A stretch of 64,000 nucleotides of DNA, from positions 1 through 64,000 of IMG/VR virus record IMGVR_UViG_3300033067_002132; one strand, given 5' to 3'. The DNA comes from a virus (taxonomy: Duplodnaviria; Caudoviricetes). Position 1 is the first letter of the stretch. Every line of letters starts with the position of its first letter. The position numbers and the translations under genes were made by a program. Below, one piece after another: positions 21,501-26,339 of this stretch. The notes beneath the pieces are model-generated. The model did not search any database and was not told the DNA's origin. It worked only from the letters and a program-made list of their open reading frames with translations.

Positions 21501-22505
21501 ATGAAACACATAATTAATCATATCGCTTTTGTTATTGATGAATCTGGATCAATGGGTCAATTTTCCAAAAATGTTGTAAGTGTTTTTGACGATCAAATTA
21601 AATTTTTATCTGAAAAATCCCAAGAATTAGATCAAGAAACTAGAGTATCTGTCTATTTATTTGGTGGGACCGAAGTTAAATGTATTATTTATGATCGAGA
21701 TGTAATGCGTTTACCATCGTTGAAAAATTTATATAAACCCGCTGGTGGAACGCCATTATTTGATGCATTAGATATTGCTGCGCAAGATTTATTCATGATT
21801 CCTGAAATTCACGCGGATCATGCTTTTCTAGTTTATGTTGTTACTGATGGAGGAGAAAATGCTAGCAGTCGATTAGATTCTTTATTATTTAAAGATTTAG
21901 TAAATAAAATTAATAATAAAGAGAATTATACGTTGGCCGTATTTGTTCCTTCAAAAATCGAATTTGAAATTAATAAACAACTTGGATTTTTAGAGGAAAA
22001 TATTTGTATTTGGGATACTTCTAATCATAAATCATTTAATGATGTAGGTACAACGATTCGTACAAGTACCACACAATTCTTTAAAAATCGAAGCACTGGA
22101 ATTCGTAAAAGTACAAATCTATTTAAAGTAGATGTAAATTTTACTAAAACAGAATTAAAAGAAAATTTGACCGAATTATCTAAGAGTTCATATAAATTAT
22201 TTAATATCAGCCGTGAAGCTACTATTAAACCTTTTGTTGAAAAAGAAACTCAAAAACCATATGTAAAGGGTAATTCTTTTTATCAATTAGTTAAGCCAGA
22301 AGTAATTCAAAATTATAAAGATATTATTATTCTTGACAAAAACAGTGGAAGAGTTTATGGTGGATTAGATGCGCGAAATCTTTTAGGATTACCGAACTTT
22401 GATATTAAAGTTTCGCCTGGAGATTTCGATAAGTATGATATCTTTGTACAATCTACGTCTGTTAATAGAAAATTATTAGCAGGTACAAAACTAGTGGTTC
22501 TATAG
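21501..22505 (+). CDS. vWA domain protein with C-terminal extension
   Basis: VIDESGSM, GGTPLFDA, VTDGGENAS, FVQSTSVNRKL. Confidence 0.85.
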   Translation: MKHIINHIAFVIDESGSMGQFSKNVVSVFDDQIKFLSEKSQELDQETRVSVYLFGGTEVKCIIYDRDVMRLPSLKNLYKPAGGTPLFDALDIAAQDLFMIPEIHADHAFLVYVVTDGGENASSRLDSLLFKDLVNKINNKENYTLAVFVPSKIEFEINKQLGFLEENICIWDTSNHKSFNDVGTTIRTSTTQFFKNRSTGIRKSTNLFKVDVNFTKTELKENLTELSKSSYKLFNISREATIKPFVEKETQKPYVKGNSFYQLVKPEVIQNYKDIIILDKNSGRVYGGLDARNLLGLPNFDIKVSPGDFDKYDIFVQSTSVNRKLLAGTKLVVL

Positions 22506-23726: not shown

Positions 23727-23800
23727 AGGGGTTTATTTTAAAAGTAGAATATCTCTCTTACAAAGAGGAGACGTTGGAGCGTTACCAACAACCCCTACCA
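23727..23800 (+). tRNA. tRNA-Val(TAC)
   Basis: Loop CTTACAA, CCA. Confidence 0.85.
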
Positions 23801-23806
23801 TTTTTC

Positions 23807-23880
23807 GCCGGTATAGTTTAAAAGTAAAACATAATCTTGGTAAGATTGAGACAGGGGCGCAATACCCCTTACTGGCTCCA
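23807..23880 (+). tRNA. tRNA-Thr(GGT)
   Basis: TAATC-TTGGTAA-GATTG, CCA. Confidence 0.9.
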
Positions 23881-23884
23881 TAAC

Positions 23885-23958
23885 GGTCTCATAATTTAAT
23901 ATTAGAATGCGCTCCTGATTAGAGCGTTGTGTTCGTGGAATTCGAACTGAGACTACCA
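23885..23958 (+). tRNA. tRNA-Ile(GAT), U37
   Basis: CGCTC-CTGATTA-GAGCG, CCA. Confidence 0.8.
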
Positions 23959-23973
23959 ATTTAAATAAAACAT

Positions 23974-24432
23974 ATGAAAATATCCCTATCACAAGCTCTT
24001 AAGTTAAAAAATCGTATTGCAGGACAATTAGTTAAGGCGCAAGAAATTTTTTCTCGCGAAAATTCTCGCCGATCTGATAATCCTTCTCAAGTAGATCGTA
24101 AAGAAGCTTTAGAAAAGATTTTTAAACTCTCCGATCTATTAGGCGATTTAAAAAGTCGAATCGCTACCGCGAATGTTCCAATTTATTCTGATATTGAAAG
24201 ATTAAACGAGACGAAATCATTAATTACGTATATTATCGGTTTAAATAAAACAGAAGGTCCCGATATAGTAGGTACAGTATATAATCAACCACCTAAAGAA
24301 TATACTTGGGACGCTCATTTAAATCAACAAAGCGCCGATAATTTAATTGAAAAGCTTCAACAAAAAATTAATGCGCATCAAGATAAAATCGATGCTTTTA
24401 ATGCAACGACAATTATTGATTTGCCGGATTGA
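23974..24432 (+). CDS. Coiled-coil protein, DIP1984/DUF6847-like
   Basis: LSQALKLKNR N-terminus; LQ.KI...QDKID.FN.TT.I C-terminus. Confidence 0.55.
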   Translation: MKISLSQALKLKNRIAGQLVKAQEIFSRENSRRSDNPSQVDRKEALEKIFKLSDLLGDLKSRIATANVPIYSDIERLNETKSLITYIIGLNKTEGPDIVGTVYNQPPKEYTWDAHLNQQSADNLIEKLQQKINAHQDKIDAFNATTIIDLPD

Positions 24433-24438
24433 TAATTT

Positions 24439-24628
24439 AGGAGAGTAGAAGATTATTGCGAAAATATTCGATTAAATTTTTCCCTTCAAAGGAAATAACA
24501 TTATTTAAAGATATCGAGAAAGAATTCAAAACTAAAAATTTCTGGTATCAAAAGTTAAGATTTAAAGTTCAAAAGTTAAAAATCTTTTGTTTAATCTTAA
24601 TGTTTTCAAAATGATTTTTTACTCTCTT
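24439..24628 (+). ncRNA. Long-stem RNA with A-rich repeat loop
   Basis: 19-bp stem with G-U pairs (24439-24457/24610-24628) plus two further helices, enclosing T(T/C)AAA repeats. Confidence 0.6.
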
Positions 24629-24817
24629 TTATGAAATTAGGTTGTCGCCGACATAAAAAATTTAATAATACATGTAAATATTGTATAGATAATCAACGAT
24701 TTTCTAATCTTTATATAGCACCAGAATACAAATTATATGCGGCGATTTTTAAAATTTCTTTAAATAAAGCACTTAGAGAAAGTAAATCGAAAAAGTTTTA
24801 ATAGAAGTGTAAAATAC

Positions 24818-25090
24818 ATGGTGAGCAGAAAACATAAAAAAAATAAATTGCCCAAAATCATGTATGAGAAACTTGGGCGCCATAAAGCAATTGGTTTATG
24901 TTATAAAGATCCGGCCCATCCCTGGATATTTTTAGATCCAAGAATTAGAGGAAAACAGCATTTAGAAGTATTAATACATGAATTACTTCATGCGGAATTT
25001 CCCGAGTTATCTGAAACGATGGTAACTAGAAAAGCTTATAGATTAAGAGATATGTTGTGGTCTGAAAAATATAGAAGAATTGATGAATAA
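24818..25090 (+). CDS. Small HExxH (minimal zincin-like) protein
   Basis: LEVLIHELLHA. Confidence 0.6.
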   Translation: MVSRKHKKNKLPKIMYEKLGRHKAIGLCYKDPAHPWIFLDPRIRGKQHLEVLIHELLHAEFPELSETMVTRKAYRLRDMLWSEKYRRIDE

Positions 25091-25091
25091 A

Positions 25092-25166
25092 GGTCATATA
25101 ACTCAATAGTAGAGTAAAGTCTTGATAAGGCTTAAGTTGTAGGTGCAAGTCCTATTATGACCACCA
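25092..25166 (+). tRNA. tRNA-Ile(GAT)
   Basis: AAGTC-TTGATAA-GGCTT, CCA. Confidence 0.9.
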
Positions 25167-25180
25167 TTTTTTAAGTTAAT

Positions 25181-25209
25181 AACCGTCACAATTTTGTGAC
25201 GGTTTTTTT
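25181..25209 (+). terminator. Intrinsic terminator closing the tRNA array
   Basis: AACCGTCACAA/TTGTGACGGTT + T tract. Confidence 0.8.
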
Positions 25210-25259
25210 ATTTTTAAATAAGACAAAATTTATATTAATAGGTGTAAATATAATTACAT

Positions 25260-26339
25260 ATGAAAAAAGTCTTATTTATTTGTAAACAAAGAGGTAACGG
25301 ATATGGAATTAGCTATGGACTGGTTAATTCGTGCAAGTTTTTAGTAAACTTATTTAATCAAAGTGGAATCGAATCAAAAGTCGTTTCTGTAGTTGATAAT
25401 AACTCTATTGATAGAGAAGTTCATAATTATAAACCAACACATGTATTTATTGAAGCTTTATGGGTTGTACCTGATAAATTTCATACTTTATTAACAAAAT
25501 ATAAAGATATTAAATGGTCTGTTCGATTACATAGTCAAATTCCCTTTATCGCACATGAAGGAATAGCTTTCGAATGGCTAAATAGATACAATGAATTAGC
25601 ACAAAGATATACTAATTTTTGTCTTTCGGCAAATAATATTAATATGGTTAATCATTTAAATGCCATTTTTAAAGATAAGCATATTTCTTCTTTTGGAACG
25701 GCAGGTACTAGTGGTAGCGGAAAGGGAAAAAGTTTAGTTCATTATTTACCTAACGTTTATTTTCCTGATGAATATGATATGGGTGAAGGAAAACAATGGA
25801 AACCTGAAAAAACGGTAAATATTGGTTGTTTCGGATCTATCCGCCCACTTAAAAATCATTTATATCAAGCGGTGGCTTCTATCATTTTTGCGAATTCTTT
25901 AGATAAGAAATTAAAGTTTCATATAAACGGAGATAGAGTAGAACAATCAGGAGAATCTATTCTTAAAAATTTAAATTATTTATTTAAAAATTCTCCACAT
26001 GAACTTGTATGTCATCCTTGGTCAAATCATTATGATTTTATTAAAGTAGTCCGCGAAATGGATATTTGCCTACAATTAAGTTTTAGTGAAACATTTAATA
26101 TAGTCGCCGCAGACGCCGTTTGGAATCGTATTCCTGTTGTTGGTAGTAAAGATATTGATTGGCTAGATGAAATTTTTAAATCTGAACCAACGGACGATTT
26201 ATCTGTATTAGCTAAAATGAAAATAGCTTATTTTGGGCGCGAAATTAATTTACAAGATAAAAATAAGAAAAGTTTAATATCTTATAATAAAGTTTCTTAT
26301 GACGTTTGGGCAAAATTCTTAAATTTAGTGTATATCTAA
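25260..26339 (+). CDS. GT-B (family 4-like) glycosyltransferase
   Basis: GCFGSIRPLKNH, SFSETFNIVAADA, IPVVGS. Confidence 0.75.
   Translation: MKKVLFICKQRGNGYGISYGLVNSCKFLVNLFNQSGIESKVVSVVDNNSIDREVHNYKPTHVFIEALWVVPDKFHTLLTKYKDIKWSVRLHSQIPFIAHEGIAFEWLNRYNELAQRYTNFCLSANNINMVNHLNAIFKDKHISSFGTAGTSGSGKGKSLVHYLPNVYFPDEYDMGEGKQWKPEKTVNIGCFGSIRPLKNHLYQAVASIIFANSLDKKLKFHINGDRVEQSGESILKNLNYLFKNSPHELVCHPWSNHYDFIKVVREMDICLQLSFSETFNIVAADAVWNRIPVVGSKDIDWLDEIFKSEPTDDLSVLAKMKIAYFGREINLQDKNKKSLISYNKVSYDVWAKFLNLVYI

What the first reader, a model, noticed from the sequence alone, without database searches (positions are those of the whole stretch)
23974..24628. Coiled-coil (DIP1984-like) gene followed by a long-stem RNA displaying A-rich repeats
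Seen: 6 nt after the stop codon, AGGAGAGTAGAAGATTATT pairs with AATGATTTTTTACTCTCTT (19 bp, four G-U pairs, which suggests RNA-level selection). The helix continues with GAAAATATT/AATGTTTTC and GATTAAAT/GTTTAATC. It encloses about 110 nt rich in short units (TTCAAAG, TTTAAAG, TTCAAAAC, ATCAAAAG, TTAAG, TTTAAAG, TTCAAAAG, TTAAAAA). Inference: an oligomeric protein binding one repeat per subunit, i.e. a second uncharacterised protein-RNA module inside the tRNA array.
Basis: partly seen in the sequence, partly recalled or inferred. Interest (0 to 1): 0.72.

Follow-up and report, generated by a model that had tools for sequence, protein, structure and literature searches.

The report
Phage protein with heptad-repeat partner RNA
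Right behind a small helical protein gene of unknown function, this 194-kb phage encodes a conserved, folded RNA of about 190 bases carrying a row of evenly spaced 7-base units; the same gene-plus-RNA pair recurs in over a hundred phage and bacterial loci and matches no catalogued RNA family, so it is probably an undescribed protein-RNA particle.

Summary
A 19-bp stem with four G-U pairs starts 6 nt after the stop codon, continues through two more helices, and encloses an A-rich core. The fold is strand-specific (z -6.0 on +, -0.9 on -).

The RNA is a conserved element. Every relative of the 152-aa gene with enough downstream sequence has a 150-250-nt closed RNA behind it, at 22-66% GC. The closing helix covaries at all 12 pairs. 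Six whole virus records each hold exactly one RNA, always just after the gene.

The "short units" are 8-9 heptads, U-Y-A-A-a-a-n (lag-7 autocorrelation z = 13). The 52-aa ORF overlapping the RNA is not conserved. No Rfam family matches.

The protein has the DIP1984 fold (3KDQ, Z 12.6) but does not reach Pfam DUF6847.

New here: a small zinc-knuckle-like gene starts 2 nt after the RNA, here and in 10 further loci. In other clades RtcB, Rnl-type ligases or WGR-PARP flank the pair.

Protein-RNA binding and oligomerisation remain untested.

This scan had already noted the same module in at least 19 other genomes. I found no publication on it.

The parts
23974..24432 (+). Gene for a 152-aa DIP1984-fold protein: three long helices plus a small beta sheet. 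Conserved motifs are LSQALKxKNR, RENSRRSD, ANVxIY and QDxIDxFNATT.
   Evidence: ORF. 29 close homologues. 1,683 clusters at E<=1e-3 among the 50%-identity representatives. AF2 pLDDT 94. 3kdq: TM 0.71, and Z 12.6 with rmsd 3.0 over 142 aa. No Pfam or NCBIfam hit for this sequence.
24436..24630 (+). The structured ncRNA as a whole (covariance-model match).
   Evidence: R1, built without the window: 30.4 bits, E 0.005, full length. R2: 77 bits. It is the only significant hit in the 193.7-kb genome; the next scores 19.7 bits, E 0.58. No Rfam match.
24439..24457 (+). P1, 5' arm of the closing helix (19 bp, four G-U pairs).
   Evidence: The family-wide P1 covaries at 12 of 12 pairs and at 13 of 14 pairs in an alignment not fitted to a model.
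24610..24628 (+). P1, 3' arm.
24460..24476 (+). P2 (24460-24468) and P3 (24470-24476), 5' strands. They pair with 24599-24607 and 24590-24596.
   Evidence: RNAfold MFE equals the centroid. Equivalent helices appear in the individual folds of relatives.
24590..24607 (+). P3 and P2, 3' strands.
24479..24495 (+). P4 hairpin, UUUCC / GGAAA, with the 7-nt loop CUUCAAA.
   Evidence: The same loop sequence occurs in L010 and L003.
24510..24549 (+). P6. GAUAUC-G-AGAAA pairs with UUUCU-G-GUAUC and encloses the first two heptads. The P5 hairpin of most relatives is missing here.
   Evidence: The CM alignment shows the deletion of model positions 93-109. GAYA..GAG / CUC..RUC pairing is kept in relatives, with a GAG-to-GGG and CUC-to-CCC change in L016.
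24526..24589 (+). Heptad tract: UCAAAAC UAAAAAU [P6 3' strand] UCAAAAG UUAAGAU UUAAAGU UCAAAAG UUAAAAA UCUUUUG.
   Evidence: Sequence. Family-wide 7-nt periodicity: lag 7 r = 0.32, z 13.4; lag 14 z 10.6. Position frequencies: U .91, Y .93, A 1.00, A .93, A .66, A .60, N.
24631..24801 (+). Small basic protein gene (56 aa) with the motif C-x2-H-x(6-12)-C-x2-C ... PExxLxxxIF. Its ATG lies 2 nt after P1. It is a frequent third component in this clade.
   Evidence: ORF. Homologues sit directly after the RNA in L002, L005, L009, L010, L011, L039, L045, L047, L052 and L076. Three Cys are invariant and His is nearly invariant. No Pfam, NCBIfam or PADLOC hit.
24456..24614 (+). 52-aa TTG-start ORF overlapping the RNA. 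It is spurious.
   Evidence: It is listed mechanically. The RNAs of relatives carry stops in all three frames, with longest open stretches of 14-73 aa and no shared frame. It has no family hit.
25181..25214 (+). First terminator-like site downstream, after tRNA-Ile (25092-25166). It is the probable end of the transcription unit that carries the tRNAs, the gene, the RNA and the small ORFs.
   Evidence: No above-chance promoter lies between the gene and the RNA.

Best explanation
The 152-aa DIP1984-fold protein and the ~190-nt RNA encoded directly behind it are two halves of one conserved ribonucleoprotein module.

The RNA is made as the 3' part of the gene's transcript. Here that transcript also carries tRNAs.

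A long closing stem (P1-P3) clamps the RNA's two ends together. The stem presents an internal domain whose main feature is a single-stranded tract of 8-9 heptads, U-Y-A-A-a-a-n. This tract is most likely a periodic landing pad on which several copies of a protein sit at 7-nt intervals. The most probable protein is the neighbouring one.

Shown here:
- The RNA exists as a conserved, covarying, strand-specific structure.
- Its core has a 7-nt periodicity.
- It is coupled 1:1 to the gene across phages and bacteria.

Inferred:
- The protein binds the RNA.
- Binding is one unit per heptad.
- The particle acts on RNA, in damage or repair, or in tRNA biology. This is suggested only by the neighbours RtcB, Rnl-type ligase, WGR-PARP and Tpt1 in other loci, and by the tRNA array here.
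For: (1) Structure in the window: z -5.96 on the + strand and -0.93 on the - strand.

(2) Conservation:
- In all 5 first homologue loci, no gene was called in the 225-561 nt directly after the homologue. Each of these stretches holds a long stem of unrelated sequence around a similar A-rich core.
- Model R1, built from 8 relatives and without the window, hits 23 of 30 loci, including the window. Every hit is on the + strand just after the gene.
- Model R2 gives 47 hits at E<0.05 in 98 loci.
- Most loci the models miss still have a closing stem that starts 1-25 nt after the stop and spans 189-221 nt. This includes MAGs at 60-66% GC.

(3) Covariation:
- 13 of 14 P1 pairs show compensatory changes in a plain MAFFT alignment.
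- On the CM alignment, 83% of cells are paired against 39-43% when the partners are slid. All 12 P1 pairs have double changes. 0 of 500 shuffles reach the observed score.
- Frequent G-U pairs fix the strand as that of the gene.

(4) Periodicity.

(5) Coupling: six whole virus records of 81-369 kb each hold exactly one RNA. It is always adjacent to the gene.

(6) Not coding. Not in Rfam.

(7) The protein family is large and old: 1,683 representative clusters. It has invariant basic and polar residues (K10, K12, R14, R28, N30, K60, K81).

(8) Context:
- RtcB directly follows the RNA in 14 loci.
- An Rnl-type ligase lies directly upstream in 4-5 loci.
- WGR-PARP lies downstream in 11 listed loci.
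- Tpt1 is present in L002.
Against: - There is no direct evidence of binding, of oligomerisation, or even of transcription. No RNA-seq holder was listed, and the complex predictor was unavailable.
- Neighbouring genes are heterogeneous overall. This phage itself has no detectable RtcB, Rnl, TROVE or PARP gene, so the repair link does not hold for every genome.
- In some loci a small ORF sits between the gene and the RNA (L012, L048, L052, L053), so strict adjacency is not required.
- A 3' position is unusual for a protein's own binding site.
- The window's copy lacks the P5 hairpin and the GGAA/GGAA internal loop of most close relatives.
Confidence: 0.6

Rival explanations
1. The RNA is an independent decoy or sponge. 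The heptad tract titrates a host factor: an A-rich-RNA binder of the Hfq/Crc or S1 type, a ribonuclease toxin, or tRNA anticodon loops. The neighbouring protein only chaperones the RNA, stabilises it, or is functionally separate.
For: - Repeated short single-stranded motifs held in a stable scaffold are the design of known sponges such as CsrB and CrcZ (established knowledge).
- The tract stays A-rich even at 60-66% GC.
- The module sits in a phage tRNA and tmRNA island.
- Ligase neighbours occur in other loci.
Against: - The module also occurs in bacterial MAGs of Verrucomicrobiota and in a deltaproteobacterial MAG, where a phage-versus-host decoy makes less sense.
- The gene-RNA coupling is 1:1 and holds down to ~30% protein identity. 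That argues the protein is an obligate partner.
- The heptad core UYAA matches no known binder's motif.
Confidence: 0.17
2. The element is a cis-acting 3' UTR. It could be a protective stem against 3' exonucleases, an RNase III processing site that separates the mRNA from neighbouring tRNAs and ORFs, or an autoregulatory site. It would have no trans-acting role.
For: - It is co-transcribed with the gene, and no promoter lies between them.
- The window's nearly continuous helix of ~36 bp looks like an RNase III substrate.
- In L018- and L025-type loci an intrinsic terminator follows the RNA immediately.
Against: - A protective or processing stem needs no conserved core of ~110 nt with eight phased heptads and internal helices P4-P6.
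- The RNA keeps its architecture when it is separated from the gene by an inserted ORF (L012).
- The terminator in those loci is a separate hairpin after the element.
Confidence: 0.12
3. The RNA is a 5' leader (riboregulator) of the gene that follows it. In this clade that gene is the small Cys-His protein, whose ATG lies 2-10 nt after P1.
For: - The spacing to the next start codon is tight in many loci.
- The small protein family is conserved behind the RNA, here and in 10 further loci.
Against: - The downstream gene differs completely in other clades: RtcB, a signal-peptide protein, a deoxyribosyltransferase-like protein, or a terminator and nothing.
- The upstream gene is constant.
Confidence: 0.05
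4. It is not an RNA feature. Either the 52-aa ORF 24456-24614 is a real gene, or the inverted repeat and the short repeats act at the DNA level as iterons, an origin, or a mobile-element end.
For: - An open frame with a TTG start and an upstream AGGAG exists in the window.
- Inverted repeats flanking direct repeats resemble origins.
Against: - No frame is conserved.
- The stem tolerates G-U but not A-C, so only the + strand folds.
- A 7-bp period is out of phase with the DNA helix.
- There is a single copy per genome.
- The stem sequence differs completely between loci while pairing is kept.
Confidence: 0.02

Closest known systems
DIP1984 family / Pfam PF20935 (DUF6847), crystal structure 3KDQ of Corynebacterium diphtheriae; often annotated 'septicolysin'
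   Same: - Same length, about 150 aa.
- Same fold: 3kdq_A at Z 12.6, rmsd 3.0 over 142 residues, with the next unrelated hit at Z 8.4; TM 0.71.
- 7 of 54 family representatives touch PF20935 at E<=0.01.
- Atlas neighbour clusters carry PF20935.
   Different: - The window protein gives no PF20935 or NCBIfam hit even at E<=1.
- It shares 11-13% identity with 3KDQ.
- The family has no known function. The papers found use 'septicolysin' only as an annotation label.
- No RNA partner has been described for it in the library searched.
Ro60 (Rsr) with Y RNAs (Yrn1, YrlA), including rsr-yrl-rtcBA operons
   Same: - A protein gene has an adjacent ncRNA whose 5' and 3' ends form a long closing stem around a functional module.
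- It is genomically associated with RtcB and other RNA-repair genes in some lineages.
- It occurs in bacteria and phages.
   Different: - There is no TROVE domain here. The protein is a helical bundle, not a HEAT ring plus vWA.
- No Y_RNA or other Rfam match.
- The internal module is a heptad tract, not a tRNA-like domain.
TRAP with the trp leader (11 (G/U)AG repeats wrapped round an 11-mer ring)
   Same: A row of evenly spaced short single-stranded motifs implies one binding pocket per repeat on a multimeric protein.
   Different: - The motif is UYAA at a 7-nt period, not (G/U)AG at 5-6 nt.
- The protein is all-alpha with a small sheet, not a beta-sandwich ring.
- The RNA is a closed stand-alone domain 3' of the gene, not an attenuator leader.
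- Oligomerisation was not tested.
T4 gene 32 translational operator: a pseudoknot plus an unstructured A/U-rich tract with UUAAA/UAAA motifs, bound cooperatively by gp32 with a ~7-nt site size (from my own knowledge, not checked here)
   Same: A structured nucleation element sits next to an unstructured A-rich tract of UUAAA-like units. The site size of 7 nt per protomer is the same.
   Different: - gp32 is an OB-fold single-strand binder that regulates its own 5' leader.
- Here the tract is enclosed by a long stem, lies 3' of the gene, and is conserved in register.
Protein-titrating sponge RNAs (CsrB/RsmZ for CsrA; CrcZ for Hfq/Crc)
   Same: Multiple copies of a short motif are displayed on one stable ncRNA.
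   Different: - Those motifs are GGA in hairpin loops, or AANAANAA, without strict phasing.
- Those genes are not coupled to the gene of the bound protein.
Type III toxin-antitoxin systems (ToxIN, CptIN, TenpIN)
   Same: A protein gene is obligately coupled to a repeat-bearing RNA, and the pair occurs in phages and bacteria.
   Different: - Antitoxin repeats are 34-36 nt, lie upstream of the toxin, and are cut into units.
- The toxin has an endoribonuclease fold.
- No PADLOC model matches here.

Membership tests
Pfam PF20935 DUF6847 / NCBIfam DIP1984 family | The sequence matches the family HMM at the curated threshold. | tested here: not met
   The window protein has no hit at E<=1 in Pfam or NCBIfam. 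The genome search with PF20935 at E<=10 was empty. Only 7 of 54 relatives hit at E<=0.01, best 2.5e-5.
Pfam PF20935 DUF6847 / NCBIfam DIP1984 family | DIP1984 fold: three long helices plus a small beta sheet, about 150 aa, as in 3KDQ. | tested here: met
   AF2 pLDDT 94. Foldseek: 3kdq_C, TM 0.71, probability 1.0. VIA-align: 3kdq_A, Z 12.6, 142 aa, well clear of the next row at 8.4.
Any Rfam 15 RNA family (including Y_RNA, tRNA-like, riboswitch, ribozyme and sRNA families) | Covariance-model match at or near the gathering score. | tested here: not met
   No match over 24436-24630 at E<=1 apart from a chance mir-723 hit on the opposite strand (24.9 bits against a gathering score of 63). No match over the RNA in 7 further loci.
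Ro60-Y RNA ribonucleoprotein | A TROVE-domain protein is encoded with the RNA. | tested here: not met
   PF05731 gives no match at E<=0.01 in the whole 193.7-kb genome, while the control genomes ring. The nearby 334-aa protein is vWA only.
TRAP-type repeat binding | (G/U)AG triplets separated by 2-3 nt, and a beta-sandwich ring protein. | tested here: not met
   The repeat is UYAA at a 7-nt period. The protein is helical.
Periodic multimer-on-RNA mechanism (works like TRAP, or like cooperative gp32 binding) | The protein oligomerises and binds one unit per repeat. | not testable with these tools
Only the RNA periodicity is shown.
Type III toxin-antitoxin | Tandem 34-36-nt RNA repeats upstream of an endoribonuclease toxin. 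| tested here: not met
   The repeats are 7 nt, lie downstream and are enclosed by a stem. No PADLOC hit.
Intrinsic terminator | A short G+C-rich hairpin followed by a U run. | tested here: not met
   The scan lists no terminator at 24439-24630. The first + strand site after the RNA's downstream ORFs and tRNA-Ile is 25181-25214. In L018- and L025-type loci a separate terminator follows the element.
Protein-coding small ORF | An open frame conserved among homologous loci. | tested here: not met
   Stops occur in all frames in relatives.

The most novel reading that the evidence does not exclude
The particle may be an RNA-damage or tRNA-handling device. Each heptad presents U-Y-A-A(-A). This 4-5-nt unit is complementary to the stacked 3' side of a tRNA anticodon loop: positions 34-37 of UUG (Gln), or positions 34-38 of UUU (Lys). 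Equivalently, it is a row of out-of-frame CAA, UAA or AAA 'codons'.

Held open by the DIP1984-fold protein, the tract would capture several tRNAs or tRNA halves, or other cleaved RNAs. It would then either shield them from anticodon nucleases or hand them to the ligases that flank the module in other lineages (RtcB, Rnl).

The long stem that joins the RNA's own ends would also make it a natural substrate for circularisation by those ligases.
Probability: 0.1. Interest if true: 0.9.

Novelty: categorically new. Interest (0 to 1): 0.78.

Why it matters
A protein family with more than 1,600 representative clusters at 50% identity has been known only as a structural-genomics orphan (3KDQ) and is often mislabelled 'septicolysin'. 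It turns out to travel with an obligate, uncatalogued structured RNA.

The RNA's design has no described counterpart: a clamp stem plus a phased row of 7-nt units. The phasing makes a concrete, testable prediction of periodic protein loading.

The module recurs next to three unrelated RNA- or DNA-end enzymes (RtcB, Rnl-type ligases, WGR-PARP), and here it lies inside a phage tRNA and tmRNA island. Together these point to an unexplored branch of RNA-damage or tRNA biology in phage-host conflict.

The module is small: 152 aa plus ~190 nt, with an optional 56-aa zinc-knuckle-like protein. That makes it directly tractable by EMSA, cryo-EM and genetics.

Tried and rejected
- **Complex prediction.** It yields no evidence either way.
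- **RNA-seq.** The look-up of sequencing runs listed no RNA holder.
- **Sequence searches that found nothing.** blastn of the region against phage records gave no match. The single-protein scan of viral contigs found nothing; the alignment-based scan did. Sequence search of the PDB with the protein or its profile gave only chance coiled-coil hits.
- **A5 for a metagenome scan.** The alignment was too divergent, so A1 was used instead.
- **Extra helices or pseudoknots.** A crude all-against-all column scan found no covarying series beyond P1 and the 2-bp extension. The idea that the distal CUCUU box pairs with AAAGAG was not supported.
- **Neighbour tally.** Among 150 flanking ORFs no single dominant family emerged.
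- **Own genome.** It has no PF09414, PF01139, PF05731 or PF00644 hit. For PARP the controls did not ring, so that blank is uninformative.
- **Literature.** Searches for DIP1984, septicolysin, DUF6847, 3KDQ, heptanucleotide/A-rich phage ncRNA, and RtcB with structured RNA found nothing describing this module.
- **BFVD fold search.** It returned only uncharacterised phage proteins.
- **Readings rejected.** The 52-aa ORF, a repeated or mobile element (single copy), and an intrinsic terminator.
Full report
**Observation.** The window is the first 64 kb of a 193,745-bp virus record. The ORF 23974-24432 (+) encodes 152 aa. Its TGA is followed by TAATTT, and then AGGAGAGTAGAAGATTATT (24439-24457) pairs with AATGATTTTTTACTCTCTT (24610-24628). 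That is 19 bp. All four non-Watson-Crick positions are G-U on the + strand. It adds a hairpin, P4 (24479-24495), and an internal helix, P6 (24510-24521 with 24539-24549). The MFE is -46.8 kcal/mol against -28.2 +/- 3.1 for shuffles (z -5.96, none of 200 as good). The opposite strand gives z -0.93.

**It is a conserved RNA.** The protein has 29 close homologues at ~50% identity. In the first five homologue loci with DNA, no gene was called in the 225-561 nt directly behind the homologue. In each, a long stem of unrelated sequence encloses a similar A-rich core. Alignment-based scans added 30 viral loci, 5 MAG loci and 80 metagenome loci.

- *Covariation without model fitting.* On a plain MAFFT alignment of eight RNAs, RNAalifold predicts the closing helix, and 13 of 14 pairs carry compensatory double changes.
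- *Model R1.* This covariance model was built from those eight RNAs, without the window. It finds the element in 23 of 30 loci, always on the + strand just after the gene. It finds the window's copy full-length at 30.4 bits, E 0.005.
- *Covariation on the CM alignment.* 83% of cells pair, against 39-43% when partners are slid by 1-3 columns. All 12 P1 pairs show double changes. No shuffle of 500 reaches the observed covariation.
- *Model R2.* This broader model gives 47 hits at E<0.05 in 98 loci.
- *Loci the models miss.* Most still show a stem starting 1-25 nt after the stop codon, with a strikingly constant span of 189-221 nt. This includes Verrucomicrobiota-type MAG contigs at 60-66% GC, where the core is still A-rich.
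- *Coupling.* In six whole virus records of 81-369 kb there is exactly one RNA each, always adjacent to the protein gene. One record has two tandem gene paralogues.
- *Not catalogued.* Rfam 15 has no family for it, either in the window or in seven other loci.

**Anatomy.** In close relatives such as L010 the order is as follows:

- P1, about 13 bp.
- A symmetric purine loop, UGGAAG / CGGAAG. I read it as tandem G-A pairs.
- A 2-bp step, then P2 and P3.
- A variable hairpin, P4.
- The purine box GAYAAAGAGAAAGA.
- A G+C-rich hairpin, P5.
- The heptad tract, followed by the 3' strands of P3, P2 and P1.

P6 pairs GAYA..GAG with CUC..RUC and so encloses the first heptads. L016 shows the linked change GAG to GGG with CUC to CCC.

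The window's copy is a trimmed variant. P1-P3 are almost continuous, the purine loop is replaced by A-U and G-U pairs, and P5 is deleted (model positions 93-109 are absent).

**The repeats are heptads.** In the window it reads UCAAAAC UAAAAAU [P6 3' strand] UCAAAAG UUAAGAU UUAAAGU UCAAAAG UUAAAAA UCUUUUG (24526-24589). Over 23 RNAs the autocorrelation of A peaks at lag 7 (0.32, z 13.4) and at lag 14 (0.24, z 10.6). Pooled over five aligned heptads in 43 RNAs, the positions are U 0.91, Y 0.93 (C 0.51, U 0.42), A 1.00, A 0.93, A 0.66, A 0.60 and N. A 7-nt period is not a multiple of three, and it is out of phase with duplex DNA. It therefore fits neither a coding reading nor a dsDNA reading.

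**Not coding.** The window has a 52-aa TTG-start ORF (24456-24614) inside the element. The homologous RNAs carry stops in all frames with no shared frame. The ORF has no family match.

**The protein.**

- *Model.* AlphaFold2 with the 29-sequence alignment gives pLDDT 94: three long helices plus a small sheet formed by the termini and a hairpin.
- *Fold match.* The best solved match is 3KDQ, the C. diphtheriae protein of unknown function. Foldseek gives TM 0.71 and probability 1.0. VIA-align gives Z 12.6 and rmsd 3.0 over 142 residues, well above the next row at 8.4.
- *Family membership.* The sequence itself gives no PF20935 or NCBIfam hit. Seven of 54 family representatives touch PF20935, and Atlas neighbour clusters carry it. 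The protein is therefore a remote, phage-rich branch with the DIP1984 fold, not a threshold member of DUF6847.
- *Family size.* The family is large: 1,683 representative clusters at E<=1e-3 and 1,326 at E<=1e-10.
- *Conserved residues.* These include K10, K12, R14, R28, N30, K60, K81 and the C-terminal QD..D..N motif.
- *Defence systems.* No PADLOC model matches.

**Surroundings.** In the window the gene starts 14 nt after a tRNA-like element that ends in CCA. Two tRNAs that ARAGORN missed lie at 23727-23797 and 23807-23877. No above-chance promoter separates the gene from the RNA. The first terminator-like site is at 25181-25214, after tRNA-Ile. The RNA is therefore most likely co-transcribed with the tRNAs, the gene and the small ORFs.

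Two nucleotides after P1 starts a 56-aa ORF (24631-24801). Its homologues follow the RNA in ten further loci. They share C-x2-H-x(6-12)-C-x2-C and a PEExLLxxIF motif, so the protein looks like a zinc knuckle. This appears to be a clade-specific third component.

Other clades have different neighbours:

- RtcB directly follows the RNA in 14 GC-rich loci.
- An Rnl-type RNA ligase lies directly upstream in L017, L090, L115 and L119, and another lies downstream in L014.
- An ATP-dependent ligase lies upstream in L022.
- WGR-PARP lies downstream in L005-7, L009-12, L044-46 and L053.
- Tpt1 is present in L002.

A tally of 150 flanking ORFs shows no single dominant neighbour. This phage itself has no detectable Rnl, RtcB or TROVE gene. 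The only constant partner of the RNA is the DIP1984-fold gene.

**Mechanism.** What is shown: a covarying, strand-specific RNA, its phased core, and its 1:1 coupling to the gene over deep divergence. The best reading is an RNP. The stem clamps the ends and the heptad tract acts as a periodic platform for protein copies at 7-nt spacing, most likely the neighbouring protein. This works like TRAP on (G/U)AG repeats, or like cooperative gp32 loading on its A/U-rich operator. It is a member of neither family. The RNA-repair flavour of many neighbourhoods, and the tRNA island here, suggest that the particle deals with RNA damage or with tRNAs. That step is inference.

The rivals are less well supported, for the reasons given under each: a host-factor sponge, a pure 3' UTR stabiliser or RNase III site, a leader of the downstream ORF, and a coding or DNA-level feature.

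**Relation to earlier notes of this scan.** After I had derived the conservation and the heptads, a look-up showed that the scan had already recorded the same gene-plus-heptad-RNA module in at least 19 other genomes: phages, gut bacteria, Verrucomicrobiota-type bacteria and Asgard archaea. My results agree with those notes, and I re-confirmed the RtcB adjacency independently. The claims of an abundant transcript in gut bacteria and of bulge-helix-bulge processing in Asgard archaea were not tested here.

Literature searches found no description of the module.

**Not done.** No RNA-seq run holding the region was listed.

Noticed in passing
window 23727-23797, 23807-23877, 23882-23960: Rfam finds two tRNAs (47.8 and 53.3 bits) that ARAGORN did not call. 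A third tRNA-like stretch ends in CCA 14 nt before the gene's ATG. The gene therefore seems to be transcribed as part of the tRNA array.
   Followed up: partly
window 24631-24801; L002 3657-3896; L010 3175-3363; L011 3172-3351; L039 2459-2656; L045 2206-2484; L047 2212-2379; L052 1737-1892; L076 519-713: A family of small basic proteins sits directly behind the RNA. Three Cys are invariant and one His is nearly invariant (C-x2-H-x(6-12)-C-x2-C), and there is a PEExLLxxIF motif. No database family matches. It may be a zinc-knuckle third component of the module.
   Followed up: partly
L014 3264-3345: About 60 nt after the complete RNA lies a partial duplicate of its 5' part: P1 5' arm, P2 and the first hairpin. 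It sits directly in front of an RNA-ligase gene (PF09414).
   Followed up: no
L013 (record G002: 99675-100115 and 100203-100640, minus strand): Two tandem paralogues of the DIP1984-fold gene share a single RNA.
   Followed up: no
L040-L043, L069-L072, L077, L078, L080, L081, L092, L105: In GC-rich, Verrucomicrobiota-type contigs (Akkermansia, Opitutia, Lacunisphaera MAGs and related) the order is sigma factor - DIP1984-fold gene - RNA - RtcB.
   Followed up: partly
L039 1478-1553 and 2741-3925; 965-1104 (-): In a deltaproteobacterial MAG contig a SAM_alpha riboswitch hit (43.6 bits) lies upstream of the module and a SAM synthetase gene lies downstream. A group II intron D1-D4 piece is nearby.
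   Followed up: no
window 25260-26339: A 359-aa protein with no Pfam or PADLOC hit. Its homologues (44-48% identity) lie next to the module, on the opposite strand, in L008, L009, L011, L013 and L014. This may be lineage synteny or a further partner.
   Followed up: partly
window 24818-25090: A 90-aa ORF with a HELLH motif and weak Peptidase_M78 / DUF6782 similarity (E about 1e-3). It lies between the small Cys protein gene and tRNA-Ile.
   Followed up: no
L012 2948-3160; also L048, L052, L053: In these loci about 210-270 nt separate the gene from an otherwise intact RNA. In L012 this stretch begins with an ATG-initiated reading frame. The RNA therefore does not depend on abutting the stop codon.
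   Followed up: no
window 24484-24490; L010; L003: The P4 hairpin loop has the same 7-nt sequence, CUUCAAA, in the window and in two otherwise divergent relatives. In other relatives the loop varies.
   Followed up: no
window 21501-22505: The 334-aa neighbour is a vWA-domain protein only.
   Followed up: partly
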